A stretch of DNA of 36,394 nt, from IMG/VR virus record IMGVR_UViG_3300020045_005093, positions 1-36,394 of that record; one strand, written 5' to 3'. This document shows positions 270-32,551 of the stretch, in pieces; the first letter of the stretch is position 1, and each line of letters begins with the position of its first letter. Source of the stretch: a virus. Lineage: Duplodnaviria; Caudoviricetes. The notes under the pieces are model-generated. The model made no database searches. It was not told the DNA's origin and worked only from the letters and a program-made list of their open reading frames with translations. The position numbers and the translations under genes are program-made.

Positions 270-1088
270 CTATAATAGCATATTTAGGTATTTTTGTCTA
301 TTTTTCTTTAAATATTCAGGCCAATCACTCTCATCTGTCCAAAATTTAAAATCTCTACCGCCGAATCTACCAGCAAATATATCCCTATTATTCTTAGCGT
401 TTTCAATTATTAACTCAGTTGGAGTACCATAATAACTATCTGTCTGGTCTTGTTCGCCTATTGTACGGGTACTCTTTACTTTATGTTTAATTCCTTCTTC
501 TCCACCTTGATAAGTAAAGTGCCAGCCACCATTAGGCAGACTTACTTCACCTTTTTGCTTTATATCATTAATCTTTTCACTTTTAAGCCGTTTATAAGTT
601 GTACAAACACTCCCTACCCATTCTTCTGAACACCTGTTGTTTAACTGATAGTAGTAAACTAATTGTTTTAATCCCCACACCCTATCATCGTGGATAATCT
701 TACTTATTCTACGATTCCATATTTCATCACAATCGCTTATAAACACAATATCCTCATCCTTACATACCGCCTCAAGAGGTTTTCGCATCATTTCCATTGC
801 GTAATATACTTTCATCCAGTAAGGGTTGCCATGGCTTGTATTGGGCGAATTCTTAGCTTGTTCAACTATCTCTTGGTCTTCTAGTAAATTAAACTGGAAA
901 TGTATTATCTTATCTTCCCATTGTTTAAACCTGTCTTTGTTCGCTAGGTAATAAGAGTCATGTGGCACGCCACTAAAATACTGCCTAGCTTCACAGATAA
1001 CAAACTTATCTACCACTTTGTCAAGAACGTGGAGTCTAATCTCAAGTATATCCAGCTCACCATTAAACAAAAATGTATCGTATATCAT
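270..1088 (-). CDS. GT17-family (MGAT3-like) glycosyltransferase
   Basis: MIYDTFLFNGELDILEIRL N-terminus, ISDCDEI (DxD) and GGWHFTY motifs. Confidence 0.85.
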   Translation of the reverse strand: MIYDTFLFNGELDILEIRLHVLDKVVDKFVICEARQYFSGVPHDSYYLANKDRFKQWEDKIIHFQFNLLEDQEIVEQAKNSPNTSHGNPYWMKVYYAMEMMRKPLEAVCKDEDIVFISDCDEIWNRRISKIIHDDRVWGLKQLVYYYQLNNRCSEEWVGSVCTTYKRLKSEKINDIKQKGEVSLPNGGWHFTYQGGEEGIKHKVKSTRTIGEQDQTDSYYGTPTELIIENAKNNRDIFAGRFGGRDFKFWTDESDWPEYLKKNRQKYLNMLL

Positions 1089-1639
1089 AAAGTTTGAGCT
1101 ACTATCACCTTACCTGTTATTTTTGAATTTAAAATCAATTTTACCGCTTGTATTACTTTGTCCATACTCTGGCTCTTTCTGCCCTTCTGTATATTTTTAG
1201 TCATTTTAGTTCGTATAAACCCAGGGGCTATACAGTTAATCTGAACATTAGGGTATTCTTTGGCTATCGTTTCGGTGAACCTCACCACTCCCGCTTTGCT
1301 TGTAGCATAAGCACTAAAGCGTGGCCTTGGATAGAACGCCCCTCCACCACTCATGTTTATTATCTTACCTTTCTTCATTCGCTTTAAGACTGCGTGGCAT
1401 ACATTCACAGTCCCTAACAAATTTACGTTTATAGTTTTGTGCCATTCTTTTAGGTCATTTGTATGAAACTTACCAATACACCCATAAATACCAGCACAGT
1501 TTATAACAATATCACCATTTTGTATACCCTCTATTTCCTGAACTTTTGTTACATCTAATTGGCTATGTTCAAAAAGAACACCTCCCAATGCTTCATGTAT
1601 TGCTGTCCCTATTCCACCACCGCCTATTACAATAATCAT
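1085..1639 (-). CDS. short-chain dehydrogenase/reductase (SDR)
   Basis: GGGGIG Rossmann motif, NCAG, catalytic YATSK (YxxxK), INCIAPG. Confidence 0.9.
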   Translation of the reverse strand: MIIVIGGGGIGTAIHEALGGVLFEHSQLDVTKVQEIEGIQNGDIVINCAGIYGCIGKFHTNDLKEWHKTINVNLLGTVNVCHAVLKRMKKGKIINMSGGGAFYPRPRFSAYATSKAGVVRFTETIAKEYPNVQINCIAPGFIRTKMTKNIQKGRKSQSMDKVIQAVKLILNSKITGKVIVAQTL

Positions 1640-2253
1640 AAAGACTCCAGTATTTTTAAATCTCTTAATAAATGCTTACTAGGCTGTCCGGGAATAAGGT
1701 AGGCTTTCTGCCCTATTCTACTGTCACTCTTTATTCCTTTTACTACATCCTCATACTCAGCCCCCACATCTTCACAGTTTTTAGCTATCTTGTTAGCATA
1801 TCCAATAGACATTGCAAGGAATCCGTTTGTTGCATGCTTAACCATCGCCGCACTCTCTAAAGACATAAACAATAAATCCCCTTTGTACCATTTGTAGAAA
1901 TCTTCCATTTGAGGTTTCAACTTTTTAGAACAACCGATTATCTGTCTGTCTGCGTTTATAAACAACTCAACACCCTCTGCTATCCGTAAATTCTCAGGGT
2001 TGTAAACAAAATCCCTACCTAACACTTTACGGGCTGTTTTTAAATAACTTACAGGGATTGGACTCATTATAATCACTAAACTGTCATTCTGTCTTGCCTT
2101 AACTAAAGCTCCCTCAATCTCCTCTAAATCCACGCTAAAGTCTGTGTTTATTGGAGTGTCTATGGCAATTATCACAGCATTCCCCGCAAGTCCAAGCTGT
2201 TCAATACTCTCTCTTATTGTTTTAGCTAAATGTCCATTGCCTATTATTTCCAT
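1636..2253 (-). CDS. UDP-glucose/GDP-mannose dehydrogenase-family protein (shortened, non-canonical)
   Basis: IIGNGHLA, AIDTP, YNPENLR, SAAMVKHATNGFLA and SDSRIG motifs; the GGxC catalytic motif and C-terminal domain are absent. Confidence 0.75.
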   Translation of the reverse strand: MEIIGNGHLAKTIRESIEQLGLAGNAVIIAIDTPINTDFSVDLEEIEGALVKARQNDSLVIIMSPIPVSYLKTARKVLGRDFVYNPENLRIAEGVELFINADRQIIGCSKKLKPQMEDFYKWYKGDLLFMSLESAAMVKHATNGFLAMSIGYANKIAKNCEDVGAEYEDVVKGIKSDSRIGQKAYLIPGQPSKHLLRDLKILESL

Positions 2254-2855
2254 AAAGTATACAAGCTCCTTTCTACATAATGTGCTTCTGCAGGTAGAAC
2301 GGCGTGTTCTAAAGTATCACGCATTTTAATATAAAACTCTTTAGGATGTTTATGTACTGTTTCTGGCGTTAAAATATAATTCCCACCTGGAGCGAAAACT
2401 AAATATTCTGGTTTCGGAAGTCCCATATAATCAGCCCAGTCATTATATGTTTTAAACTTACTTTCAAACTGTGGAGCATACCAACTATTATTCAACTCTT
2501 CAAACATTCCATCCACATATCGACATATTGGTTCATAAACCTTGTGTCCTTGGGTTAAAAGTGGAGTGAAAACCTTGTTATCCTTAACTAAATCAAACTC
2601 TTCTTTAGTTATATAATTCAGTAAATTAGACTTAGCTAACAAAAATACATCGGGTAAATTGTCGTAGTTATCAATCAAATAAGTTAAACGGTCATAGTCT
2701 GCATTCCCTATATTTTTTGTATTTATTATATATTCTTTTGGAAACGCTTTTAGCCACTCATAATTATCGCTTCTGTCATAAATTACAAAATTACTAGGCT
2801 CATAATCACCTAACCACTTCGGCGTATAATTATAATTTACTAAAACCCATTTCAT
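2244..2855 (-). CDS. glycan-related protein, DUF3431-like
   Basis: NIGNADYDRLTYLIDNYDNLPD, FAPGGNYI and AHYVERS...W pattern; cluster context. Confidence 0.55.
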   Translation of the reverse strand: MKWVLVNYNYTPKWLGDYEPSNFVIYDRSDNYEWLKAFPKEYIINTKNIGNADYDRLTYLIDNYDNLPDVFLLAKSNLLNYITKEEFDLVKDNKVFTPLLTQGHKVYEPICRYVDGMFEELNNSWYAPQFESKFKTYNDWADYMGLPKPEYLVFAPGGNYILTPETVHKHPKEFYIKMRDTLEHAVLPAEAHYVERSLYTLWK

Positions 2856-3640
2856 ATATAAATTATATTACTACGCTTGTAAAAATTAGATGGCATACTC
2901 CAGGTCTTGGTGTTTCTTCTTGCCCAATAACGTGGACAAATAGCTTCTTTTAAGTTTTCGTTCAATAACATTGGGAGAATCCCAAACGCTGAATTAGAAA
3001 GAATTAAGTGTCTAGCATATCTAACTGAACGCCAATTTAAAGCTATGTCTTTAATTACTTCATAATTTTGGGCTGGTAAATATATTAACTTCTTTGCTAA
3101 TTCTGGGTCATCAGTATGTATTTCAAAAGTGGGAATATATCTTATAGGTAATTTAGTATGAATTAAATCAATAGCTTCATTCCAATATTCTTTAGGCAAA
3201 AACAATTCAGACACGGTCGCAAATTCCCCACCTCTAAAATTAATTACACATAAATCATCAGGCATCTCCAAAGGTTCAACCTTTAGCCATTCCCTTATCT
3301 CATTTAACCTATGCCCCCAATACTTCTCATCCTGAGCACAAGTAGCGTCTATTACAGTTCCGTCTTCAATAAAAAAGAATTCTGGATTAAAATAAGGCGT
3401 ATTTAACTCAATTAAATTATGAGGTTCGTCAATAATCAATTTACCTGTTCCCTGTTCTATATGATGTTTAAAAGAAACATCTTCTCCCCAATCAAGATTT
3501 AAGAAACTATTTCCTTTAAAGTATTCTTTTCCAATAAAACCAAAAGGTACACCTAAATCCAAAGCTCTTGTCCGAACTGTGATATAGGTAAACAAAGAAT
3601 CTCCCAACCCACTTCCCGAATGAATAAGCCCAAAAATCAT
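2852..3640 (-). CDS. GT11-like (alpha-1,2-fucosyltransferase-like) glycosyltransferase, divergent
   Basis: GSGLGDSLF, INFRGGEF (HxRxGD variant), HTDD, ILSNSAFG. Confidence 0.7.
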   Translation of the reverse strand: MIFGLIHSGSGLGDSLFTYITVRTRALDLGVPFGFIGKEYFKGNSFLNLDWGEDVSFKHHIEQGTGKLIIDEPHNLIELNTPYFNPEFFFIEDGTVIDATCAQDEKYWGHRLNEIREWLKVEPLEMPDDLCVINFRGGEFATVSELFLPKEYWNEAIDLIHTKLPIRYIPTFEIHTDDPELAKKLIYLPAQNYEVIKDIALNWRSVRYARHLILSNSAFGILPMLLNENLKEAICPRYWARRNTKTWSMPSNFYKRSNIIYI

Positions 3641-4104
3641 ACAATCTTATTTAATAATGCAAATTCACCAAAGTTTTTTATCATCATTTTATTATAACCA
3701 ATGGCAGCTTCCCTCTTAGTCTTAAAATATTTAACAAAATGCTTCCTATTAACTTTAATATTAGCTGTCCAATACTGTAAATTTCTATTCCAACTAACAC
3801 CCTTATAGCCTGAAGTATTGTTTTTATTTATTTTTTGATTTGCATTGTTCTCTGAACGAGTTACCACTCTCAAATTTTCACGTCTATTGTCAAGTTTATT
3901 GCCATTAATATGGTCAGTATCTTTCCCTTTAGGAGTATTTAGAATTAAACGATGCATTTGCCTTGTACCGCTTTTTTTTAAAGCATACCCATTATTTGTG
4001 ATTGACCATCTAAACTTATTCACCTTATCAAAATCTTCATCATCCACCAAAGCAAAATGCTTGTCCTTGTTTTTCCCTTGCTGACTTAATGGTATTTTTT
4101 TCAT
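3637..4104 (-). mobile_element. free-standing HNH homing endonuclease with AP2 DNA-binding domain
   Basis: ALVDDEDF, MHRLIL, DHINGNKLDNRRENLR, NNTSGYKGV, AAIGYN...FGEFA. Confidence 0.9.
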
Positions 4105-5057
4105 AAACTTTTAAAGAAATTGTAATCAGTCATTATTATATCCTCAATAGTTCTCTTAGGCTTCCAACCAAGCTCTCGTTCAGCTTTACCAGAATCTCCA
4201 ACTAATCTATAAGGGTCGCTTGGTCTTTGAGGCATAAACTTGTAGTTAAGTTTCTGGTTTAACAGTCTTTCCGCAGTCGTTATCATTTCCATTAACGAAT
4301 AACCTTTATTCATTCCCAAGTTATAAACCTTGCAACCGTCTAAGTGTTCAAGTGCAAGCAAGTGGGCTTCAGCTAAGTCGTTTACGTGGACATAGTCTCT
4401 TATTGCCGTGCCGTCAGGAGTAGGATGTGTATTCCCATAAGCTTCAAATATTGGCTGTTGCCCTAAAAACGTCTTGACTAAGTTCGTTACTAACTGGGTT
4501 TCAGGATTATGATAACAACCCACTTCTAAATTCTCGTCTACCCCGCTTGCACAGAAAGGACGGAACGAAATTGAATTAATCCCATAAGCTCGGTGGTAGT
4601 CTTTAAGCACTTGTTCAATTACCATCTTACTAAATCCATAAGGGTTGTCAGGGTTCTTTTCTGAATCCTCGGTTAAAGGGTCTGGTGTATGCTTGTAAAT
4701 TGCCGCTGTTGAAGAGAATATAATCTTGTTACAATCCACCGCTCGCATGCAGTCTAAAACATTTAAACTGCCTAAAATATTCACATCATAATACTTAGCA
4801 GGGTCAGACAAAGAAGGAGCTACATTCGCTATTGCAGCAAAATGGTCAACTACATCTGGTTGGAAATTATTAAATACCTTAAAAAGTTTCTTGTCCCTAA
4901 TGTCTGCAGGATAGTAACGCACGTTCTTATCCTTAATTCTGTTCCTTAGAGTCTGAGAAAAATTATCTACTACCGCAATTTTATGCCCTCTTTTACGAGC
5001 TTGATTAACAAAGTGTGCACCGATATACCCAGCTCCGCCTGTAACTAAAATTTTCAT
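4101..5057 (-). CDS. galE: UDP-glucose 4-epimerase
   Basis: VTGGAGYIG, HFAA, FSSTAAIY, NPYGFSK, TPDGTAIRDYVHVNDLAEAH. Confidence 0.9.
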   Translation of the reverse strand: MKILVTGGAGYIGAHFVNQARKRGHKIAVVDNFSQTLRNRIKDKNVRYYPADIRDKKLFKVFNNFQPDVVDHFAAIANVAPSLSDPAKYYDVNILGSLNVLDCMRAVDCNKIIFSSTAAIYKHTPDPLTEDSEKNPDNPYGFSKMVIEQVLKDYHRAYGINSISFRPFCASGVDENLEVGCYHNPETQLVTNLVKTFLGQQPIFEAYGNTHPTPDGTAIRDYVHVNDLAEAHLLALEHLDGCKVYNLGMNKGYSLMEMITTAERLLNQKLNYKFMPQRPSDPYRLVGDSGKAERELGWKPKRTIEDIIMTDYNFFKSL

Positions 5058-5548
5058 ATTCTCTCCAAAACGGTTAAACCGTTGTTATTTTGATAATGTT
5101 GTTTAACTTTCCATGCTCCTACTTTTAGTAAATACCCAATCGCTACCCAGAGTTCTTTAGCACTCTCTGTGTCATGTAATACAATATACTTTTTTGCTTT
5201 ATGTGCATGAAGTCTAAATTCTTTTTTAAGGTGTTCTGTTGTATGGTCAGTATCTATAAAAAGTAAATCGGTTTCTTCAATCTCAATCTTAGTTGTATCT
5301 CCTAATCTAAACTCAAAATCAATTTCTAATTTTTTAGCCGTATCCTTAACCGCTTGTAAGTTTTCCTCAGGCGGATTAACTATATCTATACTCACTAACT
5401 TACCTTTTGTTTTAGCTAATCCCTCTAAAAAAGCCCAAGTAGATACACAGTTTCTAACTCCCATTTCTGTTATATGCGAACACTCCTCGCTCAACTTAGC
5501 AAGTGTGCCTAAGTGTTCATGTATGTCTGTTGATTCTATTACAATCAT
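5054..5548 (-). CDS. class I SAM-dependent methyltransferase (Methyltransf_24-like)
   Basis: EMGVR...ST, SIDI, DLLFIDTDH, IVLHDT, NNNGLTVL. Confidence 0.8.
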   Translation of the reverse strand: MIVIESTDIHEHLGTLAKLSEECSHITEMGVRNCVSTWAFLEGLAKTKGKLVSIDIVNPPEENLQAVKDTAKKLEIDFEFRLGDTTKIEIEETDLLFIDTDHTTEHLKKEFRLHAHKAKKYIVLHDTESAKELWVAIGYLLKVGAWKVKQHYQNNNGLTVLERI

Positions 5549-6168
5549 ATCTCAAAGTTCGGAAAAATCCGATTCCTTCCCATAGTTTTATGGTACATAA
5601 ATGTTCTTGGTATCTGATAGTTCTCAGGGACTTCATTCTCCCGTCCAAAATATACAGCCTCCTCTAAGGGAGCGAACCTGCAACCGTTTTCTTCAAATAC
5701 GTGCCTCATGTTCACGCTTATATAACCGTCTTCATTAAAATAACCATACCAATCTCGCCATTCCATTCCTATCTTCTTTGGTAGTTGCATTAACTTCTTG
5801 CTTCTTAAACTCACAGAGTTCCCTACTCTCTGCACCACACCATTTATATCTCGGTAGCTAAAATTATCTGTCGGTAAAGGGAAAGGCGCACCTATAAAGT
5901 CATACTCTAACCACTTCTGTCGCCACATATCAGGTTCAGCTACACCGCCGTCAGGATGAACAAACAAAGCGAAATCAGTTTTAATATAATCCCCTAAATC
6001 AAACACTACCGCCTTATTCCATTCGTCTATCGTGTTTGTCGGGACAATAATATTCTTCACATCTCCAAACTCAATCCGGGCTGACGAGTACTCTAGTTGG
6101 CGTTGTTGTTGCCCTTTGTACTTTTCTGAACCAAAAGCACAAAGAGTAATCTGCGGAAGCTTAAGCAT
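5545..6168 (-). CDS. DUF5672-like putative glycosyltransferase
   Basis: VHPDGG, W...WLEYDFIGAP, VGNSVSLRSKKL, NEDGYI, FAP. Confidence 0.7.
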   Translation of the reverse strand: MLKLPQITLCAFGSEKYKGQQQRQLEYSSARIEFGDVKNIIVPTNTIDEWNKAVVFDLGDYIKTDFALFVHPDGGVAEPDMWRQKWLEYDFIGAPFPLPTDNFSYRDINGVVQRVGNSVSLRSKKLMQLPKKIGMEWRDWYGYFNEDGYISVNMRHVFEENGCRFAPLEEAVYFGRENEVPENYQIPRTFMYHKTMGRNRIFPNFEI

Positions 6169-6775
6169 AGTCGTTTGGGATAGGCACTTTCATATCTTTA
6201 ATTGAATTAGGAATTACATCAGGCTTAGTTTTAACTGCAATATCGTAAATACGCTTTCTACCTGTACCAACATAAATCATCCTTTTCCCTACACCACTCC
6301 AATCATTAATCTCTTTTTCAATCAAAGGTGCTATTATATCAACTGAATCGCCCATAGTCCATTGGTCTATAAAAGCCTTTTCAAATTGCCAAGGAGTAGC
6401 TTTAAAAAGAGTACGAATAATCAAATAATTTGAATGCGTTTCTACTAATTCTTCTGCTAATTTTTTAGTAAGAGCATAAAAATTAGTCGGCTTTCCTGCG
6501 TATTCAGACGAAATATAAACTATTGGGGTATTAGGATAAGCTAACAAAAGATTTAAAGTACCATTTACATTTACATCAAAACATTCTTTCTTTTGTACCT
6601 CAGCTTCTTGTACTTTAGTATAAGCTGCGCAATGAATAATCAAATCAAAATTTAATCGTTCTATCGGTTCAGTTATGTCCATTTCCTCATGTGTAGGTCT
6701 GTCCGCTTTTATTTTTAAATTCCGCCCTAAAAGTCCACTACCCCCTGTCATTAATATCATAAAATTCGTAGACAC
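6161..6775 (-). CDS. RmlD-like NDP-4-keto-sugar reductase (short)
   Basis: TGGSGLLG, IIHCAAYT, VNVNGT, YISSEY, YALTK. Confidence 0.8.
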   Translation of the reverse strand: MSTNFMILMTGGSGLLGRNLKIKADRPTHEEMDITEPIERLNFDLIIHCAAYTKVQEAEVQKKECFDVNVNGTLNLLLAYPNTPIVYISSEYAGKPTNFYALTKKLAEELVETHSNYLIIRTLFKATPWQFEKAFIDQWTMGDSVDIIAPLIEKEINDWSGVGKRMIYVGTGRKRIYDIAVKTKPDVIPNSIKDMKVPIPNDYA

Positions 6776-7835
6776 TTTTAATAATATACTCTACCTCCCT
6801 ATTAGTTAAAGCATTATGGCAAGGCAAAGAAAGCAATCTTATCCAAATCTTATTTGTTATAGGCAACGGATTTCTAACACACTTGCGATAATAAGTCATC
6901 TCAGATAAAGGCTTAAAATGTACACTGGTAGTAATACCTTTTTTGCCTAAATACTCGCCTAATTGGTCTCGTTCCTTAAAACATTGTGTATAATACTGAA
7001 CTGTATGCGAATCTTTTAATTTAAAAAACCAATTCTTGCCCTTAAAAGCTTCATTATACTTAGCTTGTATTTCTCTTCTCCTAGCAGTCAGCTTGTCTAT
7101 TCGTCTTAAATTACCTAACCCTATCACAGCAGTTAAATCAGTCATGTAACTTTTTTGTCCACCGTGTTTTATGTCGTAATCCCAAGTATATGATTTTCCA
7201 ACTCGGTCAAAGGTACTTTTTTCAACTCCAACCCAAATCATACCTTTTAACTTTTTGACCATCTGTTCGTCATTGGTTGTAATCATCCCTCCATCACCTG
7301 TCGGAAGACTTTTAACCGCTTGAAAGCTCCAAACTGCTATATCTCCGCCTTTACCCGCCCCAGGTGTGTAGCAAGCGTGGGCTGCGTCTTGAATTAAAAG
7401 TACCTTACGTTTTCCAATCTTTTTTCTTATTCCTTCATAATCCGCCAATCTGCCATGTGAATCTACTGCGATTATCGCTTTTGTTTTAGGTGTAATTTTA
7501 ATTGCTTTAGGGTCTATACAAAGGTCATCAGCTTTAATATCTGCAAAAGTACACTTCATTCCGTTCCATTCTGCAACCACCGCATCAGAAACAAAAGTCA
7601 TTGGGGTTGTTATCAACTCGCCGCCTTTAATTCCGTAAACTTTCAAGCACAAATCTAACGCTGAAGTTGCAGAATTGACCGCAACTGCGTACTTAGAACC
7701 AACTTTTTTCGCAAACTCCCGTTCAAATTCCAAGACTTTCGGGCCATTTCCCCACCACCCGCTATCTAAAACTTCTAATAACTCTTGTTTGGTTTTCTCG
7801 TCAATTGTTGGTTTTAGCACCGCTATATTTTTCAT
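6738..7835 (-). CDS. DegT/DnrJ/EryC1/StrS PLP-dependent sugar aminotransferase
   Basis: GPKVLEFE, AVNSATSAL, QDAAHA, SFQAVKSLPTGDGGM (PLP lysine), LSLPCH. Confidence 0.93.
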   Translation of the reverse strand: MKNIAVLKPTIDEKTKQELLEVLDSGWWGNGPKVLEFEREFAKKVGSKYAVAVNSATSALDLCLKVYGIKGGELITTPMTFVSDAVVAEWNGMKCTFADIKADDLCIDPKAIKITPKTKAIIAVDSHGRLADYEGIRKKIGKRKVLLIQDAAHACYTPGAGKGGDIAVWSFQAVKSLPTGDGGMITTNDEQMVKKLKGMIWVGVEKSTFDRVGKSYTWDYDIKHGGQKSYMTDLTAVIGLGNLRRIDKLTARRREIQAKYNEAFKGKNWFFKLKDSHTVQYYTQCFKERDQLGEYLGKKGITTSVHFKPLSEMTYYRKCVRNPLPITNKIWIRLLSLPCHNALTNREVEYIIKSVYEFYDINDRG

Positions 7836-8388
7836 ATAATATTTGGTGTTCTTTTAATTTTACTTCATTAGAAATTAAATTAGTGGCTTGTTCGTCATGA
7901 ATTCCTATATTTACATTTACTTCATCTAAAATTTGTGGTTTGCCATATCTATTGAATAATTGCATATAAAAATCACAGTCCACCATCCAAGACAAATCCC
8001 CAAAATATATAGGCTCTTTATTTCCATTTTCTATGGTTAAGCAACTTGGTGCGCCTAATTTATTATTTCCTTTCCAAATATCATCTGTCCAATAAGGATG
8101 AGGGTTGTTGGAAGACCCTGTTATCAACCAACCTGTTTTAAAATTATCTTCTATGTGTTGTAAAGAATATTTATTTGTAAAATAATCATCTTGGTGTAAA
8201 AATTTTATTAATTCGCCTTTACTTTTTCTTATACCGGCATTATGATTTTGCGCCCAATTACCTTCTTCTACTGCGACAATTTCATAATCAGAAAAAGTTT
8301 GGTTATGTATAGACTCTAAGCACCTATTCAAAAGTGGTTGCCAGTTTTTTATTCCTTTGTATATTGGGACTACTATACTAAATCGCAT
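7801..8388 (-). CDS. GT2-family glycosyltransferase
   Basis: FSIVVPIY, NAGIRKSKGELIKFLHQDDYF, LGAPS, MVDCDFY. Confidence 0.85.
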   Translation of the reverse strand: MRFSIVVPIYKGIKNWQPLLNRCLESIHNQTFSDYEIVAVEEGNWAQNHNAGIRKSKGELIKFLHQDDYFTNKYSLQHIEDNFKTGWLITGSSNNPHPYWTDDIWKGNNKLGAPSCLTIENGNKEPIYFGDLSWMVDCDFYMQLFNRYGKPQILDEVNVNIGIHDEQATNLISNEVKLKEHQILYEKYSGAKTNN

Positions 8389-8923
8389 ACCACTCCTTTA
8401 AAAATCCGACTCGTTGAATTTTATCAGAAAACCATTCTTTCGGATAAACGACTTTCTTATTTGGATTACCTAGAAAACCGCCCCACCAACTTAAAGACGA
8501 ATTAGCCATTATCATTCCTTTACAAGAAGCCATTGCCTTTAAGTCTTCTTCTACTGTTTTCCCTTCTGAAAACTCAAATCTACTATCAAAATACTTTTTA
8601 CAGAACTCTATATCATCACTAAACACCACAAACTTTTCATTAGGAAATTGTGAAATAGCATCTGCATAGTAAGTAGTCTTGGTTAAGTCTACATAAAACG
8701 AATTTCCAACATAATCTCCACGTCTAACATGAATTGCTACTCGCTCATCATTACCAATTCCATCTCCAAACAATTGCCTTATCTCGCTTCCATACTTATC
8801 AAAATACTTAGGGTCTTGGACAAAGATATCCGGTATCGCACCATCTCTAAACTGAGAATAAATATAAGCATACTGAAAAAGTGAATTCCCTAATCTACCA
8901 AAATGTTTTTGTACAAAATTCAT
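8378..8923 (-). CDS. GT11-family alpha-1,2-fucosyltransferase-like protein
   Basis: GRLGNSLFQYA, IHVRRGDY, VFSDD, ANSSLSWWG. Confidence 0.9.
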   Translation of the reverse strand: MNFVQKHFGRLGNSLFQYAYIYSQFRDGAIPDIFVQDPKYFDKYGSEIRQLFGDGIGNDERVAIHVRRGDYVGNSFYVDLTKTTYYADAISQFPNEKFVVFSDDIEFCKKYFDSRFEFSEGKTVEEDLKAMASCKGMIMANSSLSWWGGFLGNPNKKVVYPKEWFSDKIQRVGFLKEWYAI

Positions 8924-9600
8924 TAAAAATCCAATCCGACTTCGGGGAAGTCTTTATTAATTTGTCCTAAAAGCTTCTTATGATACTGAATTGCTTTTGT
9001 ATACATACTCTGACTTTTAATTCGGTACATCCATAAAACTTCTGGTATTGTATATAACTTATATCCTCTAGTTAGCAAATTCACCCACAAATGAAGGTCT
9101 TCATAACCTTCCACCATTTTGGGAGAATAGCCGCCAATCTCTAGCAAAGCGGAACGTCTTATTGCGGCACAATAGCCAAGCCTATTTCCTGTTTTAAAAT
9201 CTTCTAAAGTCGGATTTCCTAGTATTACTTCTCGGTTTCCAAGTCCGAATTCCTTAAAAGAAGGAGCGACAATATCTGGCGAATTAATTTCTATAACTTT
9301 TCTAATATGATAACTACAATTTTTTAACAAAACATCATCAGCGTCTAAAAATAGGCAATATTCTCCGCTTGCGTTCATAATCCCAGTATTTCTCGCACTA
9401 GCCAAACCTTTGTTTACTTGCTTTATTACTTTAACTAAACCCCTAGTTATGTCAGCATACTTTTTAGCAATTGCCCAAGAACTGTCTGTACTTCCATCAT
9501 CTACAACAATAATCTCACTTTCGTACTGAATTAAGGCCGATTCAATCGCTTCTGCTAAATATTCTGCTTGATTGTAAACTGGTATTATTATAGAAATCAT
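8923..9600 (-). CDS. GT2-family glycosyltransferase
   Basis: ISIIIPVYN, VVDDGSTD, NKGLASARNTG, FLDADD, YEDLHLW. Confidence 0.93.
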   Translation of the reverse strand: MISIIIPVYNQAEYLAEAIESALIQYESEIIVVDDGSTDSSWAIAKKYADITRGLVKVIKQVNKGLASARNTGIMNASGEYCLFLDADDVLLKNCSYHIRKVIEINSPDIVAPSFKEFGLGNREVILGNPTLEDFKTGNRLGYCAAIRRSALLEIGGYSPKMVEGYEDLHLWVNLLTRGYKLYTIPEVLWMYRIKSQSMYTKAIQYHKKLLGQINKDFPEVGLDF

Positions 9601-9779
9601 AATTCTTTAATAGCTTTTTCAACCAATTTATTTAGATAATCATAACCCAAAGATTTATAATTTGAATCATAAAACCGCCATTTTTTATTAGTCTTCCATT
9701 CATAAATGGTTGAAAAATAAAAACTAATAGGGACACTTGCTATTAACAAAATAAAAATTGACCAAATTATTATTATCAT
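9597..9779 (-). CDS. small membrane protein (60 aa)
   Basis: N-terminal hydrophobic helix; ATGA overlaps on both sides. Confidence 0.6.
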   Translation of the reverse strand: MIIIIWSIFILLIASVPISFYFSTIYEWKTNKKWRFYDSNYKSLGYDYLNKLVEKAIKEL

Positions 9780-10786
9780 TTTTGTATCATCTTAGCTACT
9801 GCTTTCCCGCCCTCTTTGGAAACAGAAAAAGCTTTGGTTAAAGTTATAAGTTTAGGTGGAAAAGAACAACCCCACACTATCGGTTCGTAATATTCTTTAA
9901 TCAAAGAATCAGGATAGATGTAAGAAGGAGTTAAGAAGATTAAGTCTTGTGGGGTTTTCTCAAGATACTTGTTCCATACCGTCTCGTCATTCCAAATTGG
10001 CGTGTATCCGTGTGCCATATCTCGGTCTACAATGTCTTTCATCGCCCGCATAGCTTTAAACCATTCCACACTCGTTCCTCCCTGAAACCCGCCAGCAAAA
10101 TACATTGGCATAAATCTTGGCTTGCCACCGTCATTTATCACTAGTCCAGGTCGGTTTATGTAAGCTTGAGAATCCTTATTTGGCTCGTAAGGAGGGTAGA
10201 GCTCTTTTCTAAGGTAATACCCTGGGTGTGGAGCAGCAGTAAGCCCTGTACCAAGAATCTCATCTCCTACAATATTCACAAATTGCATATCTACATCACA
10301 GTAAAAAATGTAATCATAGTCTTGTAGAACTTCTTCTTGCTGTAAAAACAAGTGGTATCTCATTAAAGTAGGAAGCGGCCAAGGTTGGGGTTCTGTGGGG
10401 AAGAGTCTCGCCCCAAACGCTGTTGGGTGTTCTATTATCTCTACCGCTTCGTTAAAACCGTCTGCATAAGCATTCTGTTCTGTCTTTTTAGTTGGGATGA
10501 CTTTCTTTTCAGCAGGCATATCTGTCCACAAAAAATAATCTACATTGTGTCCTGGAAGGAAGTATTGCTTCGCTCCGTCAATCATAGGCTTTATAAACTC
10601 CCAATACGGAGGATTCAAACAAATACAACAAAAAGCTACTCTCTTTTTAGGAAGTTTCCCTAAATTACCGTTTAAAAAATTATAGAGGTTAATATCTAAA
10701 TTATACCTATTTATATCTACCCCAAGATTATTTTGGGTATAAAAGTTATTTGCTACCCTAATAAACTCTTCTGCGGTTATTTGCAT
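9776..10786 (-). CDS. GT6-family (ABO blood group-like) alpha-1,3-Gal/GalNAc transferase
   Basis: YFLPGHNVDYFLWTD, WPLPTLMRY, YCDVDMQF, YFAGGFQGG, WNDETVWNKY, LTPSY. Confidence 0.9.
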   Translation of the reverse strand: MQITAEEFIRVANNFYTQNNLGVDINRYNLDINLYNFLNGNLGKLPKKRVAFCCICLNPPYWEFIKPMIDGAKQYFLPGHNVDYFLWTDMPAEKKVIPTKKTEQNAYADGFNEAVEIIEHPTAFGARLFPTEPQPWPLPTLMRYHLFLQQEEVLQDYDYIFYCDVDMQFVNIVGDEILGTGLTAAPHPGYYLRKELYPPYEPNKDSQAYINRPGLVINDGGKPRFMPMYFAGGFQGGTSVEWFKAMRAMKDIVDRDMAHGYTPIWNDETVWNKYLEKTPQDLIFLTPSYIYPDSLIKEYYEPIVWGCSFPPKLITLTKAFSVSKEGGKAVAKMIQK

Positions 10787-11292
10787 ATTAAATGTAAAAT
10801 TAATGTTTGAAAACTCTCTGTATATGGAGTAATCATTCCTTTAACCTCTGGTACTCGTACACAAACATCAGCGTTGACAAAAGTATAACCACCTTCATAC
10901 CCAGTAATCCCCCCTATCTTTGCTCCCCGTTCTTTGGCAAAATCTATTGCGTTTACTAAATTTTTGCTTACCTTTTCAGTCCCGCCATTCACACTCAAAA
11001 TCAAAACCATATCTTTACTATTTAATCTACTTGTATCTAACCACAAATTAAACACATAATCCCAACCTACATCATTAGTATAAGCAGTCAACTCAGCTAC
11101 ATTATCTACTGGACTATAAGTTTCTTTACCCATTATTTTCCTAAAATCATTTACAGCATGGGAAGCATTAGCCGCACTCCCCCCCACCCCAAGAATAAAC
11201 AACCTATCACAACTCTTGATTAAATCTCTTAATCTATCTACCTGTACCCAATTTAAATTGTCAACTATATATTTTATTTCGTCAGCCCACAT
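10777..11292 (-). CDS. gmhA: SIS-domain phosphoheptose isomerase (GmhA-like)
   Basis: GVGGSAANASHAVND, LTAYTNDVG, LSVNGG, ITGYEGG, ESFQ...H. Confidence 0.8.
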   Translation of the reverse strand: MWADEIKYIVDNLNWVQVDRLRDLIKSCDRLFILGVGGSAANASHAVNDFRKIMGKETYSPVDNVAELTAYTNDVGWDYVFNLWLDTSRLNSKDMVLILSVNGGTEKVSKNLVNAIDFAKERGAKIGGITGYEGGYTFVNADVCVRVPEVKGMITPYTESFQTLILHLICK

Positions 11293-12034
11293 ATTCGCTT
11301 CCCTTAAAAGTAAATTTAAAATTTGATTCTACATCACCATAAAAAAGAAAGAACCCACCACCGCCGCTTCCTAACAACTTCCCCCCTTCTGCACCTGTTT
11401 TTAAACCTTCTTCGTAAATTTCGTCTAATTCTTTATTCGTCATCCCATTCATCATCCTCTTTATGGTCCAATGTTCGTTCATCAAAGTCCCAAAATTCTT
11501 TATGTTTCCCGATTTCATTTCGCTTAGCATCGTCTGCCCAATTTCTTTTATCTTGAGCATACCGTTTAAGTCTAATCCTTTTTCTTGCTGAATCTTTGTA
11601 TCGTGGGTTAGTCCTGTCCATTGAAGCATTAACTTAGAGTTAAGTTCGTCAATTAAATCTTGTTTAAACTTTAATCTCTCAACCTTAACCTTTCCTTGCT
11701 TGTTTATTTCTAAAGCTATAAATCCCCCATAAGCCGCTAAATACTGGTCTTGTTTGCCTTTTTCGTCTGCGTGTTCTGCTAACCATTTAGGAATTGCTGT
11801 TGGATTGTCTGCTAACAGTCTCCCTACTTTATAAGCTCCACTTCCGCCCATTCCGCTTCCTATCGGTAAGTCGCTTTTAACAGAATACTCAAATACCCCC
11901 TCTTCTTTTTTATCTATCCAAACGTATCTATCAATCGTAGCTCCCCAGCAGAACCCGCCGTATTTCTCATAGAACTCTGGTAAGTCTGTTCCTCCTCCTC
12001 CCAAGGGGATTCTGTAGGGTGTTTTTGTTGGCAT
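11282..12034 (-). CDS. hddA: GHMP kinase, heptose-7-phosphate kinase (HddA-like)
   Basis: TPYRIPLGGGGTDLP, LPIGSGMGGSG, GKQDQY, GGKLLGSGGGGF. Confidence 0.8.
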   Translation of the reverse strand: MPTKTPYRIPLGGGGTDLPEFYEKYGGFCWGATIDRYVWIDKKEEGVFEYSVKSDLPIGSGMGGSGAYKVGRLLADNPTAIPKWLAEHADEKGKQDQYLAAYGGFIALEINKQGKVKVERLKFKQDLIDELNSKLMLQWTGLTHDTKIQQEKGLDLNGMLKIKEIGQTMLSEMKSGNIKNFGTLMNEHWTIKRMMNGMTNKELDEIYEEGLKTGAEGGKLLGSGGGGFFLFYGDVESNFKFTFKGSEYVG

Positions 12035-12411
12035 TTTTTTCTTATATTAGTTGAAGAATAATCATGATTCCTAGAAGTATAAACTATCTTAGCTTTAGTG
12101 GGGTTTCGGGTTTCTCCTTTGTGGTCTGCTCCTACAAAACGCACATCTGGCAACCACAAGTCTAAAAGTTTAAGTTCTTCTTCGGTCTGATAAATTAACA
12201 CGGCATCTACCCATTTATTTGCCCTTAACATTAGGTACCTCTCGCCTGGATTCATTATTGGCTGGTTTTTTTCTTTCCTATCAATACTAGGGTCTGTCTG
12301 TAATGCGACAATTAGGTAATCACAATGTTGTTTACACTCCTCAAAATGCAAGCAATGCCCCGCATGAACAAAATCAAAGGCACCCGCTGTCAAACCAATT
12401 TTAAGCTTCAT
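11914..12411 (-). CDS. HIGH-family nucleotidyltransferase (TagD/RfaE-domain-II-like cytidylyltransferase)
   Basis: GAFDFVHAGH (HxGH), DYLIVAL, ER, RNHDYSST; probable start MKLKIG at 12411. Confidence 0.85.
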   Translation of the reverse strand: MKLKIGLTAGAFDFVHAGHCLHFEECKQHCDYLIVALQTDPSIDRKEKNQPIMNPGERYLMLRANKWVDAVLIYQTEEELKLLDLWLPDVRFVGADHKGETRNPTKAKIVYTSRNHDYSSTNIRKKCQQKHPTESPWEEEEQTYQSSMRNTAGSAGELRLIDTFG

Positions 12412-13012
12412 ACGCTTTGGTGAATTCATCTATACTCGCTTGCGTCTTTAAATGAGTAAAACTCTTTTCCAATAAATCAGGATTAATTGTTAAAATATCC
12501 GCATTGGTTAAAAGTGCTTCTTCTACATCTTTTGGTGTCCGTAAAGAACCTACAATTATCTTTGCTTTCAGTTTCCCTAAATTAATTTCTCTAACAGAAT
12601 CAATCCCAGCGTCTTTAGCCCTACAAAAAAACTGGCTTACATAATCCGCTCCTAAAAGCGAAGCAAAAGCCAGTTGTTTAAAAGTCATTAACCCTGTTAT
12701 ATTAAGTTTCATTTCACTTTTTAAAATTCTAATAGCCATTAGCCCAGCCATATTCCCTGGTATTTTAACAATAATATTAGACGCTAACCCCGCTAAAATT
12801 CGTGCTTCATCACAAATTTGTTCTGTAGAAATAGCATACACTACTTCTGCGCTTACTGGAAGAGTCGGGACTAAGGAACAAATCTTTGGCAAATGTTCTT
12901 CTTGTTTTTTCCCTTCTTTTGCCATAATTAAAGGATTCGTTGTTATCCCATCTACCAATCCTTTATATTTTGCAATAGCCTCTAAATTTGCACTATCTAG
13001 GTAAATTTTCAT
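12401..13012 (-). CDS. tal: transaldolase (TalC/MipB type)
   Basis: IYLDSAN, GITTNP, VKIP Schiff-base Lys; Glu in SAEVV and Phe in SQFFCR favour transaldolase over FSA; start placed at MKIYLD (13012). Confidence 0.88.
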   Translation of the reverse strand: MKIYLDSANLEAIAKYKGLVDGITTNPLIMAKEGKKQEEHLPKICSLVPTLPVSAEVVYAISTEQICDEARILAGLASNIIVKIPGNMAGLMAIRILKSEMKLNITGLMTFKQLAFASLLGADYVSQFFCRAKDAGIDSVREINLGKLKAKIIVGSLRTPKDVEEALLTNADILTINPDLLEKSFTHLKTQASIDEFTKAYEA

Positions 13013-13154
13013 AAATGTCTTCCTCTCGTTTAGCACCATAATAATTCCTACCATTGATACGAATAGCCCAATTGTCCTGCTTATACCACCTCACAAACTT
13101 AACATCTTTATCATAAAAGGGCATAACTTCACTAAAAAAGATTCCGTCTTTCAT
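12993..13154 (-). CDS. small hypothetical protein (53 aa)
   Basis: Hand-translated MKDGIFFSEVMPFYDKDVKFVRWYKQDNWAIRINGRNYYG...; TAATG coupling to the upstream gene. Confidence 0.6.
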   Translation of the reverse strand: MKDGIFFSEVMPFYDKDVKFVRWYKQDNWAIRINGRNYYGAKREEDIYENLPR

Positions 13155-25403: not shown

Positions 25404-27218
25404 TCACGGGGCTTTAAATCCTTTTACTGTTGCATAAAGAACCGAAGTAGATGTCGTGGCTTGAAAGTCAAAAGTTTCATTCGCTAACGTTCTTAAAGGA
25501 GTTTGAAAACCAATCATATTAGAACCTCCACCCGTGGGTGCTATTCCATACCCAAGAACTGAAGTTCCGCCACCTGACCTAAATGTTACAAGAGTTGTTG
25601 TCGCACCCGTGTTAGCTAAAATAATGTCTGTAATATAATTTCTTATCCCTGCTCCAGCCGCTGCCACTAAAGTAGTTACGGAAGTAGAAACTACTGAATG
25701 ATATCCCTCAATCCTTGATTCTTCAGCAGCAAAAGGTTTTATTAAATTTCTACCTGCTGAGTCTACTCCGATAGGAGCATAATCAAGGTTAGCTGAAACA
25801 AACGAAGCGGTGTTATCGTTTCTTACCCCCCAAGTAGGGAAACCATAATCTCCTGTGGTATGGGCAGAATCTTCTGCGAATGGCCCAGTAACTGGGACTG
25901 TACCTTGTATGGAAGCGTTAAACGTCCCACCAGTAGTTGCAACTGAACCCTGAACAATAACTATTGTAGAACCTACAGGGACTGAGAGAATAGAGGAGCT
26001 TTTTTCTACTGTAATTATTGAACCGGTAGAAACAGTAATTGTAGAACCAACTGGAACTGCGAGAATGGAGGAGTTAGAAAAAGTCGTTATCCAAGGGTTT
26101 GTTCCTTGTAAAGTAGCCACTGAACCTAATACCGCTGTTCCTGCAGGTAGTTGTCCGAATATTGAAGCACCCACTATTACGCTTGAAGGGACAGTTGAAA
26201 CCAAAGACGTAGTCCTCGTGCCTACTTGAGTAATAATTGACGAGTTTTGGAAATTAACAACCCAAGGGGAAGTCCCTTGAAATGCAACTACTGAGCCAGC
26301 TGTATTTACTGGCACTGTTCCTGATATAAAAGCTACAACCGACCCAGATACATTTTGGTTTGTTGGAAAGTTGCCTACTGCTACTGAACCAGATATCGGG
26401 AAAATTCCCCCTGTGAGAGAACTTTTTACTGTCCATTCTGGCGTTCCTTGTAATGCGGTAACAGAACCTATTACATTAGCACTGTTTAAAAGCATTACTG
26501 AAGAATTTGTTGTTGCAGTAGCAATAGAACCGCCGATAACAACAACAGCAACAGACCCTTGGACATCTGTCTGCACAGTACCGCTAACACTTTGGTTAGC
26601 CGCTGGAGTAACCGAAACTGCCACAGAACCTTGAATCAAAGTAATGACACTCCGATTGTTTGTGTCTACTGCCCAAGGGCTAGTGCCTTGAAAGGCAACG
26701 ACACTCCCTGCGGTATTAACAGGGACAGTACCATTTATAAACGCAACAACCGACCCAGAGACGTTCTGATTGGTTGGGAAATTTCCCACTTGCACAGTAC
26801 CGCTTATACTTGGGTTACCAGAAACTTGAACTGTTCCCGAAACGCTTTGATTAGCAGGCGGAGTAAATGTTGCCGCTATTGAACCGCCTATAATAACTGT
26901 ATTCACAGAACCAATAATTCTAACATCACCAGATATGCTAGGAGTCCCAACTATCCCTACAGAACCTGACACAGACTGATTTGCTACTGGAGAGCCGACA
27001 GTAATTACAGAAGCGTTTGAACTATTAAGCCACGCTGCTACCGAACCATTATTAACTAAAACTGTTCCACTAACAGATTGGTTTCCAGTAGGAAAAGCAA
27101 CCACAGACCCTGATTGAGTACCAATATTAACAGTACCAGATACTGAAGAATGGGTTAAAAGTTTTGTTGGGTCGCTTTGGAAAGCAACTACACTATTTGT
27201 TTCTGGTATGTATGCCAT
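25404..27218 (-). CDS. repetitive Ser/Val/Gly/Thr-rich fibre protein
   Basis: NQSVSG and GSVVAF repeats, 39-aa internal duplication, globular C-terminus. Confidence 0.7.
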   Translation of the reverse strand: MAYIPETNSVVAFQSDPTKLLTHSSVSGTVNIGTQSGSVVAFPTGNQSVSGTVLVNNGSVAAWLNSSNASVITVGSPVANQSVSGSVGIVGTPSISGDVRIIGSVNTVIIGGSIAATFTPPANQSVSGTVQVSGNPSISGTVQVGNFPTNQNVSGSVVAFINGTVPVNTAGSVVAFQGTSPWAVDTNNRSVITLIQGSVAVSVTPAANQSVSGTVQTDVQGSVAVVVIGGSIATATTNSSVMLLNSANVIGSVTALQGTPEWTVKSSLTGGIFPISGSVAVGNFPTNQNVSGSVVAFISGTVPVNTAGSVVAFQGTSPWVVNFQNSSIITQVGTRTTSLVSTVPSSVIVGASIFGQLPAGTAVLGSVATLQGTNPWITTFSNSSILAVPVGSTITVSTGSIITVEKSSSILSVPVGSTIVIVQGSVATTGGTFNASIQGTVPVTGPFAEDSAHTTGDYGFPTWGVRNDNTASFVSANLDYAPIGVDSAGRNLIKPFAAEESRIEGYHSVVSTSVTTLVAAAGAGIRNYITDIILANTGATTTLVTFRSGGGTSVLGYGIAPTGGGSNMIGFQTPLRTLANETFDFQATTSTSVLYATVKGFKAP

Positions 27219-32257: not shown

Positions 32258-32551
32258 TTATCCTACTACTGAGCCTGTGGGGGAAACCCAGGCGTTATTA
32301 GTGTTTCTAAAAATTGGATAACCTAAATCTGTTGCGAAATATTGTTGTCCTATAACCGAGTTCTGGGGTCTTCCTGATACTGAACCGTACATATTCACAT
32401 ACTTACGGGGGACTACTTGTAAATTATCTGTCGGAGTGTCGGTTATCTTTCTGTCTATAAAAGCGTGGGAAGACAAGTAAATCGGTAAAACCTTACTAAC
32501 AATTTCTTTGACTTTATCTTCTAATTTATTTTCCTCCGTCGTCATAGTCAA
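32258..32551 (-). CDS. small virion-associated protein
   Basis: RPQNSVIGQQYFATDLGYPIF...W...G carbohydrate-binding-like module. Confidence 0.55.
   Translation of the reverse strand: MTMTTEENKLEDKVKEIVSKVLPIYLSSHAFIDRKITDTPTDNLQVVPRKYVNMYGSVSGRPQNSVIGQQYFATDLGYPIFRNTNNAWVSPTGSVVG

What the first reader, a model, noticed from the sequence alone, without database searches (positions are those of the whole stretch)
270..13012. Phage-encoded 13-kb glycan factory, probably for virion glycosylation
Seen: about 17 tightly coupled sugar genes (six recognisable GTs from GT2, GT6, GT11 and GT17, two GT-like DUFs, donor synthesis, aminotransferase, methyltransferase) on the same strand as the virion genes. 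There is no flippase, Wzy, GtrAB or undecaprenyl transferase, and the GTs lack TM segments. Established: serotype-conversion cassettes need such membrane components, and GT-dependent virion glycosylation is known in some mycobacteriophages and giant viruses. Inference: a cytoplasmic pathway builds a complex glycan on phage proteins. Devoting a third of the window to it is unusual for a small podovirus-like genome.
Basis: partly seen in the sequence, partly recalled or inferred. Interest (0 to 1): 0.85.

Follow-up and report, generated by a model that had tools for sequence, protein, structure and literature searches.

The report
Podovirus glycan operon with serine tags
A whole group of small uncultured phages devotes up to about a quarter of the genome to a fixed set of sugar-adding enzymes, and several unrelated particle proteins carry a repeated short serine motif, so these phages likely coat their own particles with a phage-made, possibly blood-group-like sugar chain, although no sugar has been measured.

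Summary
The cluster is real and phage-borne. None has a transmembrane segment.

All 16 genomes mapped in detail (window plus 15 relatives, 36-44 kb, seven with terminal repeats) carry GT6, GT2, GT11, a GT11-like gene, DUF3431 and GT17, usually just ahead of the terminase. The donor-synthesis genes vary. No GtrA, TET/JBP or thymidylate synthase was found in the records searched, and an integrase in only one genome.

New here: a small-Ser-Val/Ile motif tops an unbiased trimer scan across non-homologous particle proteins. It is serine-specific, sits in a clade-specific ~50-residue capsid insertion, occurs 26 times in the window's fibre, and is at background level in sister phages lacking the cluster. 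Against this: 37 variable tail proteins showed no enrichment, and the motif and cluster were gained together only once.

Best reading: cytoplasmic serine O-glycosylation of the virion, possibly ending in a GT11/GT6 blood-group-like cap (about 0.65). Host and initiating enzyme are unknown. It is a new variant of known virion glycosylation.

The parts
12401..13054 (-). Transaldolase/FSA (probable start 13012); would supply sedoheptulose-7-P. Only in the window among the 16 mapped genomes
11914..12429 (-). HIGH-family nucleotidyltransferase (RfaE domain II / TagD-like); in 4 of 16 genomes
11282..12034 (-). HddA-like heptose-7-P kinase, compact form (250 aa against about 330 aa in most homologues)
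10777..11292 (-). GmhA-like sedoheptulose-7-P isomerase
9776..10786 (-). GT6 (ABO/BoGT6a family) with DxD and WxDE motifs; core gene, 16 of 16
8923..9600 (-). GT2b; core gene, also in the minimal cluster of G030; candidate initiating enzyme (inferred)
8378..8923 (-). GT11 (alpha-1,2-fucosyltransferase family), HxRRGD motif; core gene
7801..8388 (-). GT2a; a second GT2 is present in 15 of 16 genomes
6738..7835 (-). DegT-family PLP enzyme, best match PseC-like aminotransferase; relatives carry this type or an RfbH-like type
6161..6775 (-). RmlD-like reductase
5545..6168 (-). DUF5672, putative GT; 15 of 16 genomes
   Evidence: no solved relative found
5054..5548 (-). Methyltransf_24; the same domain is fused to DUF5672 in G003 and G009
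4101..5057 (-). GalE UDP-glucose 4-epimerase (above the TIGR01179 cut-off)
3637..4104 (-). HNH-AP2 endonuclease inserted in the cluster; not a sugar gene
2852..3640 (-). GT11-like protein (no Pfam hit; clusters with GT11; RGGE motif); core gene
2244..2855 (-). DUF3431; confident model resembling the GT-A fold; core gene
1636..2253 (-). Short UDP-glucose-dehydrogenase-like protein (205 aa; same length in L019)
1085..1639 (-). Short-chain dehydrogenase/reductase
270..1088 (-). GT17; core gene and usually the last gene of the cluster, ahead of the terminase in most relatives
25404..27218 (-). Probable fibre/appendage protein (604 aa) with 26 [GAS]-S-[VI] motifs; candidate acceptor
34112..34933 (-). 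Probable tail protein v273, 3 motifs (one Ser column invariant in relatives); candidate acceptor
32258..32551 (-). Small virion protein v97, 2 motifs; candidate acceptor
32526..34115 (-). Probable tail nozzle (name inferred from gene position), 2 motifs
27220..28254 (-). Probable virion protein v27220, 2 motifs
35883..36392 (-). 3' half of the major capsid protein (N4-gp56 family). The motif-bearing insertion is in the missing 5' half and is seen in L017 (91% identical) and L019 (88%)

Best explanation
This is the conserved glycosylation operon of a clade of ~42-kb podovirus-like phages, and it likely builds an O-linked glycan on serines of the phage's own particle proteins in the host cytoplasm. 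Shown: a fixed set of soluble transferase-family genes (GT6, GT2, GT11, GT11-like, DUF3431, GT17, usually DUF5672) with exchangeable donor-synthesis and methylation genes. Also shown: a serine-specific small-Ser-Val/Ile motif concentrated in conserved particle proteins of this clade. Inferred: the motif is the attachment site. The smallest natural set (GT2b, GT11, GT6 in G030) would make Ser-beta-Gal(NAc), add an alpha-1,2 deoxy sugar, then an alpha-1,3 Gal(NAc), giving a blood-group-A/B-like cap. The other transferases would extend or branch it. Swapping donor genes (amino sugar, 3,6-dideoxy sugar, fucose-like sugar, and in the window a heptose) would vary the coat between phages.
For: Cluster core in 16 of 16 mapped genomes. 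GT6 in all 15 clade records at least 90% complete (G001, G003, 11 of 11, G029 and G031). No cluster TM segments in the window. No GtrA in 17 records; no flippase or Wzy among 133 scanned non-window family representatives. No tyrosine integrase in 17 records. No TET/JBP or ThyA in 15 records, no 2OG-FeII_Oxy_3 in 17, and no DNA polymerase hit. Motif [GAS]-S-[VI]: 231 against 53.5 expected in fibres, 257 against 116 in other exterior families, 56 against 52.8 in internal/assembly proteins, 45 against 72.3 in enzymes; the Thr version is 127 against 124 in the exterior families. z of at least 2.5 in 14 of 16 genomes. An unbiased scan of all trimers puts SSV, GSV, SIL, SVL and ASV on top across 10 exterior families. 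Eight of these families show no detectable homology to each other (hhalign probability at most 2.1%). At motif columns Ser 291: Thr 3, against 1219: 89 at other Ser-majority columns. A ~50-residue Gly/Ser/Thr-rich capsid insertion with invariant Ser-Val in 26 of 26 sequences is absent from phage Pony and from sister capsids. Sister loci have background motif levels and no core GT upstream in 0 of 4 testable loci. GT6 keeps the DxD and WxDE motifs and matches BoGT6a and the ABO transferases.
Against: No glycan, transcript or protein has been observed. The motif was first spotted by eye. A hold-out set of 37 variable tail-region proteins showed only 55 against 46.7 (1.18x, z 1.4). G006 and G016 show no enrichment, nor does G030 (10 against 8.3), and G029 is marginal (1.63x, z 1.8). 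Portal and terminase reach 1.6x and 1.5x in the larger set, with the Thr version similar. Two sister loci reach 1.6-1.9x (L248, L168). The sister set is small (12 loci), and cluster, insertion and motif map to a single clade, so their co-occurrence is one event. The protein after the portal in sister phages is not homologous to F20, so that comparison is positional only. The capsid model is unreliable (pLDDT 46.6), so the outward position of the insertion rests on recalled HK97-fold topology. No cluster family resembles the Che8/Corndog essential enzymes gp110/gp38; only Che8 gp108 hits the GT2 profile weakly (E 1e-5). The cluster is inverted relative to virion genes in G012 and G029.
Confidence: 0.65

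Rival explanations
1. The enzymes modify a host surface glycan (S-layer, pilus glycan or polysaccharide), using the host's own lipid carrier and export machinery, to block superinfection or change adhesion. This is the usual reading of the cyanophage 'LPS' clusters and of sugar genes in Patescibacteria phages.
For: P-SSM2's 15-gene cluster shares GT6, GT11, GT2, epimerase and FkbM-type families with this one and is interpreted that way (PMC7824862, PMC12801897 passages). GT6, GT11 and GT2 act on O-antigens in bacteria (PMC3516806 passages). Cytoplasmic O-antigen GTs need no TM segment (established knowledge).
Against: No integrase in 17 records (one in G016), so there is little sign of a lysogenic phase in which a host surface change would pay off. 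No GtrA or flippase found. The transferase core is fixed over a clade spanning 35-49% GC. This reading does not explain the motif or the capsid insertion.
Confidence: 0.15
2. The cluster hypermodifies phage DNA with an oligosaccharide through an unrecognised handle on a base, as 5mYOX- or ThyS-linked GT clusters do.
For: Phage GT clusters add mono- to trisaccharides, including heptose, to 5hmC and are often near terminase genes (bioRxiv 10.1101/2023.12.21.572611 passages). This cluster usually abuts the terminase, and the window makes a heptose donor.
Against: No TET/JBP or ThyA in 15 records and no 2OG-FeII_Oxy_3 in 17; no DNA polymerase hit. Members carry ordinary DNA methylases or Mom. The cluster is not beside the terminase in G012 or G029. 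Only three handle families were searched in six frames.
Confidence: 0.08
3. The virion is glycosylated, but the small-Ser-Val motif is only a structural beta-strand signature and the sugar goes elsewhere, for example on the capsid's penultimate Ser/Thr. Or the pathway makes a free oligosaccharide or glycosylates a host protein.
For: The capsid's second- or third-last residue is Ser or Thr in 26 of 26 sequences. Glycans are reported at capsid C-termini in mycobacteriophages (PMC12619734 passage). The hold-out test of the motif failed.
Against: Beta-strands usually favour Thr over Ser (established knowledge), yet only the Ser form is enriched. Orthologous F15, v97, nozzle and capsid proteins of sister phages are at background. 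Pony's capsid, without GTs, also ends in a penultimate Thr.
Confidence: 0.12

Closest known systems
Mycobacteriophage virion glycosylation (Che8, Corndog, Myrna; Freeman et al. 2023, not held, seen only as cited in PMC11256854, PMC12363180, PMC12619734 and PMC12582341)
   Same: Small tailed phage with soluble phage-encoded GTs and no membrane parts; proposed acceptors are capsid and tail proteins.
   Different: Che8 has three annotated GTs and no donor genes in the region fetched. Here there are 7-8 transferase-type genes plus donor synthesis and methylation. No match to gp110/gp38. The candidate sites are many internal motifs and a capsid insertion, not one C-terminal site.
Cyanomyovirus 'LPS' clusters (P-SSM2 15-gene cluster; S-SCSM2R with 13 GTs)
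   Same: Shares GT6, GT11, GT2, epimerase/dehydratase and FkbM-type families.
   Different: Those are in T4-like genomes of about 200-250 kb, are patchy between relatives (PMC7824862 passage), and are assumed to act on the host surface. The 15 P-SSM2 genes tested gave no GT17, DUF3431 or DUF5672 hit. Here the core is fixed across a clade and fills 13-29% of a ~42-kb genome.
Histo-blood-group antigen synthesis by GT11 + GT6 (ABO transferases, BoGT6a, PaGT6; E. coli O86 pathway, gene roles recalled)
   Same: GT6 with DxD, WxDE and the conserved acceptor His, always with a GT11 and a GT2. The characterised bacterial GT6 enzymes use a 2'-fucosylated galactoside (PMC3516806 passages).
   Different: No lipid carrier or flippase found. 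The window has no Gmd/Fcl, so the GT11 donor is unknown. Specificities are untested.
Phage DNA sugar hypermodification clusters (5mYOX/TET- or ThyS-linked GTs)
   Same: GT cluster with sugar-tailoring genes near packaging genes; heptose can be a donor.
   Different: The base-handle enzymes were not found.
Autonomous glycosylation in chloroviruses and giant viruses (search listing only; otherwise recalled)
   Same: The virus encodes both donors and transferases; the best viral fold matches of DUF3431 include giant-virus proteins.
   Different: Eukaryotic hosts and genomes roughly ten times larger.

Membership tests
Virion glycosylation system (mycobacteriophage type) | Phage-encoded soluble glycosyltransferases inside the phage genome | tested here: met
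Virion glycosylation system (mycobacteriophage type) | Glycans covalently on capsid or tail proteins | not testable with these tools
   needs virions; only indirect motif evidence
Virion glycosylation system (mycobacteriophage type) | Homologue of the essential Che8 gp110 / Corndog gp38 enzyme | tested here: not met
   no hit of gp110 or gp38 to the clade family profiles; sequence profiles only, no structure comparison
Serotype-conversion cassette (GtrABC type) | GtrA flippase and membrane transferase | tested here: not met
   0 of 17 records with PF04138; no multi-TM protein in the clusters
Serotype-conversion cassette (GtrABC type) | Temperate phage with an integrase | tested here: not met
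   0 of 17 records with PF00589; one integrase in G016; serine integrases not searched in six frames
DNA sugar hypermodification cluster | 5mYOX/TET dioxygenase or thymidylate-synthase homologue | tested here: not met
   0 of 15 (PF12851), 0 of 15 (PF00303), 0 of 17 (PF13640); divergent handles not excluded
CAZy GT6 (ABO family) | Family match with DxD and catalytic WxDE motifs | tested here: met
CAZy GT6 (ABO family) | Transfer of Gal/GalNAc to a 2'-fucosylated galactoside | not testable with these tools
   needs an enzyme assay
CAZy GT11 (for 2852-3640) | Pfam PF01531 match | tested here: not met
   0 of 9 proteins; linked to GT11 only by BLAST clustering and RGGE motif
GT-A fold glycosyltransferase (for DUF3431) | GT-A fold | tested here: inconclusive
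   model pLDDT 95.8; top PDB rows are GT-A transferases and nucleotidyltransferases but best Z 8.0, rmsd 3.6, 145 aligned; viral GT-A-domain protein E 1.7e-10
GDP-D-glycero-alpha-D-manno-heptose pathway (GmhA, HddA, GmhB, HddC; composition recalled) | All four steps | tested here: not met
   GmhA- and HddA-like present; no GmhB phosphatase; the nucleotidyltransferase is HIGH-type, not HddC-type

The most novel reading that the evidence does not exclude
A widespread clade of ~42-kb podoviruses runs a complete, sequon-directed O-glycosylation pathway. It evolved a dedicated capsid loop and spread a small-Ser-Val/Ile address over unrelated virion proteins, wraps the particle in a GT11/GT6 blood-group-like glycan, and switches 'glycotype' by exchanging donor-synthesis cassettes under a fixed transferase scaffold, as bacteria do with O-antigens.
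Probability: 0.4. Interest if true: 0.87.

Novelty: new variant of a known kind. Interest (0 to 1): 0.72.

Why it matters
Virion glycosylation in tailed phages is reported for a few mycobacteriophages with two or three enzymes. If the reading holds, this clade shows a small phage spending about a quarter of its genome on a complex, variable glycan coat with a definable attachment motif. That gives a short, soluble, in-vitro-testable pathway and candidate activities for DUF3431 and DUF5672. It would also challenge the habit of labelling phage 'O-antigen/LPS' genes as auxiliary genes acting on the host surface.

Tried and rejected
N-linked sequon test: only the fibre family was enriched among virion families (106 against 70), and N-x-x-x-S/T was equally common (129 against 112). 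Capsid, adaptor and nozzle were at background. Rejected.

Promoter and terminator scans were at chance level. No tRNAs and no informative repeats.

Capsid structure prediction was too poor to place the insertion, so it was not used for a fold search. The DUF5672 profile found no solved relative; 2852-3640 found none either.

Host not identified. The portal scan of GTDB genomes gave one hit, a phage-sized 43-kb contig in a binned genome labelled Cellvibrionaceae. The nearest long-contig transaldolase homologue (68%, 949-kb contig) carries no name. One DUF3431 hit is labelled Nanoarchaeota on a 1.5-kb contig, and one HddA hit Parcubacteria at 36%. Low Shine-Dalgarno use and no spanin hit fit Patescibacteria but prove nothing.

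No isolated relative among 50,697 phage records; the best capsid matches were 25-31% identical. No sequencing run was listed. The fibre C-terminal domain search gave only 3 loci and no usable control. The portal tree is the quick tree; the careful search did not finish. Metagenome contigs L167 and L173 could not be searched whole. No complex prediction was run. Earlier-findings look-ups by place, by 8 words and by sequence were empty.
Full report
Observation. The window is a whole 36,394-nt linear virus record, 84% complete by CheckV, with nearly all genes on the minus strand. Positions 270-13054 hold 19 ORFs, 17 of 18 junctions overlapping. In reading order: transaldolase/FSA, HIGH nucleotidyltransferase, HddA-like kinase, GmhA-like isomerase, GT6, GT2b, GT11, GT2a, DegT aminotransferase, RmlD-like reductase, DUF5672, methyltransferase, GalE, HNH, GT11-like, DUF3431, short Ugd-like, SDR, GT17. 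None has a transmembrane segment. GC content is continuous with the adjacent early genes. Five GTs are confirmed by Pfam. The sixth is GT11-like only by clustering and motif.

It is inside the phage and defines a clade. Searches with the tail, capsid and portal proteins, which do not depend on sugar genes, returned a large family of phage contigs. L019 links DUF3431-Ugd-GT17 to terminase, portal and a capsid 88% identical to the window's, so the window's missing part is likely the packaging module. I mapped 16 genomes in full; one, G001, was first found by GT6. GT6, GT2, GT11, GT11-like, DUF3431 and GT17 are in 16 of 16, DUF5672 and epimerases in 15, DegT in 14. All 15 clade records at least 90% complete have GT6. 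Core genes fill 13-29% of each record. Donor and tailoring genes vary: of 11 DegT proteins scanned, 4 are PseC-like and 7 RfbH-like. Gmd-like, Fcl-like and dTDP-glucose-dehydratase-like genes, FkbM, TylF and C-methyltransferases and B12 radical SAM enzymes come and go. The full four-gene heptose module is only in the window; G015 has the HddA/GmhA pair. G030 (89% complete) has a minimal version: GT11, GT6, GT2b, one unknown ORF and FkbM. The cluster is inverted relative to virion genes in G012 and G029.

What the acceptor is probably not. Six-frame searches found no TET/JBP (0 of 15), no thymidylate synthase (0 of 15) and no 2OG-FeII_Oxy_3 (0 of 17). These are the handles that known DNA-glycosylating clusters need (bioRxiv 10.1101/2023.12.21.572611, passages; PMC13326640, abstract). 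There was no GtrA (0 of 17) and no tyrosine integrase (0 of 17; G016 has one). A Pfam scan of 133 representatives (all non-window families in two or more genomes, and singletons of at least 170 aa) showed no flippase, polymerase or undecaprenyl transferase. A host-surface role through host carriers is not excluded by this.

Evidence for virion acceptors. N-linked sequons were not enriched. I then noticed small-Ser-Val repeats in the fibre and capsid and tested [GAS]-S-[VI] against composition-preserving shuffles. Results: fibres 231 against 53.5, other exterior families 257 against 116, internal/assembly proteins 56 against 52.8, enzymes 45 against 72.3. The Thr version in exterior families was 127 against 124. 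'Exterior' is my assignment from gene position and composition. In the window the fibre has 26 motifs in 604 aa and the 19 cluster proteins have 2 in 4,285 aa. Per genome, 14 of 16 reach z of at least 2.5.

Because the motif was chosen after looking, I ranked all trimers by how many families enrich them. The top five in 10 exterior families were SSV (6), GSV (5), SIL (5), SVL (5) and ASV (4). In 15 interior and enzyme families no trimer passed 4. Eight exterior families compared pairwise show no detectable homology. Motif serines are almost never replaced by threonine (291:3, against 1219:89 at other Ser columns).

The capsid has a ~50-residue Gly/Ser/Thr-rich insertion with invariant Ser-Val in 26 of 26 sequences. 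It is missing from Bacillus phage Pony and from the nearest sister capsids. From recalled HK97-fold topology it lies in the E-loop, on the outer surface; my model could not confirm this. In 169 long-insertion loci the motif is enriched 1.7-4.9x in capsid, F15, F20, v97, v273 and nozzle. In 12 short-loop sister loci the orthologues are at 0.7-1.3x, and 0 of 4 testable loci have a core GT upstream (L167 and L168 fell between the length cut-offs and were in neither group). Some sisters carry a different GT4-type mini-set before the terminase. The complete sister provirus G027 has neither GT2 nor GT6.

Evidence against. A hold-out set of 37 variable tail-region proteins gave 55 against 46.7 (z 1.4), so the motif is not a property of all exterior proteins. 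G006, G016 and G030 show no overall enrichment and G029 is marginal. Portal and terminase reach about 1.5-1.6x for both Ser and Thr forms. Sisters L168 and L248 reach 1.9x and 1.6x. The long-insertion phages form one clade in a quick portal tree (support 99), so cluster, insertion and motif co-occur through a single gain. Related sequences inflate all z values despite de-duplication. Nothing has been measured on a virion.

Mechanism (inferred). GT6 keeps DxD and WxDE in every intact copy and matches BoGT6a and the ABO enzymes. Characterised bacterial GT6 enzymes use a 2'-fucosylated galactoside (PMC3516806, passages), the product type of GT11 (established knowledge). The minimal set GT2b-GT11-GT6 therefore suggests Ser-beta-Gal(NAc), then an alpha-1,2 deoxy sugar, then alpha-1,3 Gal(NAc), with GalE supplying the galacto donors. 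DUF3431 folds confidently and resembles GT-A enzymes. It, DUF5672, GT11-like, GT2a and GT17 would extend or branch the chain, and methyltransferases would cap it. Which enzyme initiates is unknown; none matches Che8 gp110 or Corndog gp38. O-glycosylation of Ser after an invariant Gly in a trimeric beta-helix has a structural precedent in the pond glycofibril TLP-12, attributed to a eukaryote (bioRxiv 10.1101/2025.09.30.679562, passages). The purpose is open: stability, shielding from proteases or grazers, or adhesion.

Known and new. Virion glycosylation is known in mycobacteriophages (Freeman 2023 not held; seen as cited in PMC11256854, PMC12363180, PMC12619734 and PMC12582341, passages). Large GT clusters sharing GT6, GT11 and GT2 are known in cyanomyoviruses and read as host-surface genes (PMC7824862, PMC12801897, passages; record). 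Nucleotide-sugar genes in Patescibacteria phages are read the same way (PMC12911398, passages). PMC12960796 (passages) added nothing on this point. Nine literature searches listed no paper that, by title or abstract opening, describes this clade, its cluster or the motif. Subscription papers and supplements were not seen and could do so. Other AI notes of this scan report analogous tags in other phages; they are leads, not support. Verdict: a real, clade-defining phage glycan pathway, likely virion O-glycosylation (0.65), a new variant of a known kind; interest 0.72.

Noticed in passing
window 18948-19802 (-): Mom-family DNA modification gene, found only in the window among the 16 mapped genomes.
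   Followed up: no
window 15688-16545 (-); L001 8767-9558: SPFH/Band 7 membrane protein upstream of the cluster in the window and G001.
   Followed up: no
L117 16164-17950 and four other genomes: GroEL (5 of 16 genomes) with GroES-like genes between the cluster and the terminase.
   Followed up: no
window 11282-12034, 1636-2253, 8378-8923, 1085-1639: Several cluster enzymes are compact: HddA-like 250 aa against about 330 aa in most homologues; Ugd-like 205 aa, conserved at that length in L019.
   Followed up: partly
L167 870-3278, L168 123-2594, L258 2331-5183: Sister phages with short capsid loops carry a different GT4-type mini-cluster just before or around the terminase.
   Followed up: partly
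L292 548-3938 (G030): Minimal GT11-GT6-GT2 cluster with FkbM, a shorter capsid insertion and no motif-rich fibre; a possible early stage or a reduction.
   Followed up: partly
L124 14001-16222 (G010): Amidoligase plus glutamine amidotransferase pair on the opposite strand right after GT17.
   Followed up: no
L114 14387-16894 (G005); L297 14032-15456 (G031): GT47-like and B12-dependent radical SAM genes added to the cluster.
   Followed up: no
L004 4255-4644 and 5134-5652 (families F20 and F15): Two small conserved proteins between portal and scaffold with no Pfam hit and strong motif enrichment; possible capsid decoration proteins.
   Followed up: partly
LR756502.1 444204-450929; LR745206.1 425995-427999: Two unannotated huge-phage records carry GT6 near GT17 or GT2 homologues.
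   Followed up: no
all 16 mapped genomes: Low Shine-Dalgarno use (0-7 of 18-31 conserved genes per genome); host unknown.
   Followed up: partly
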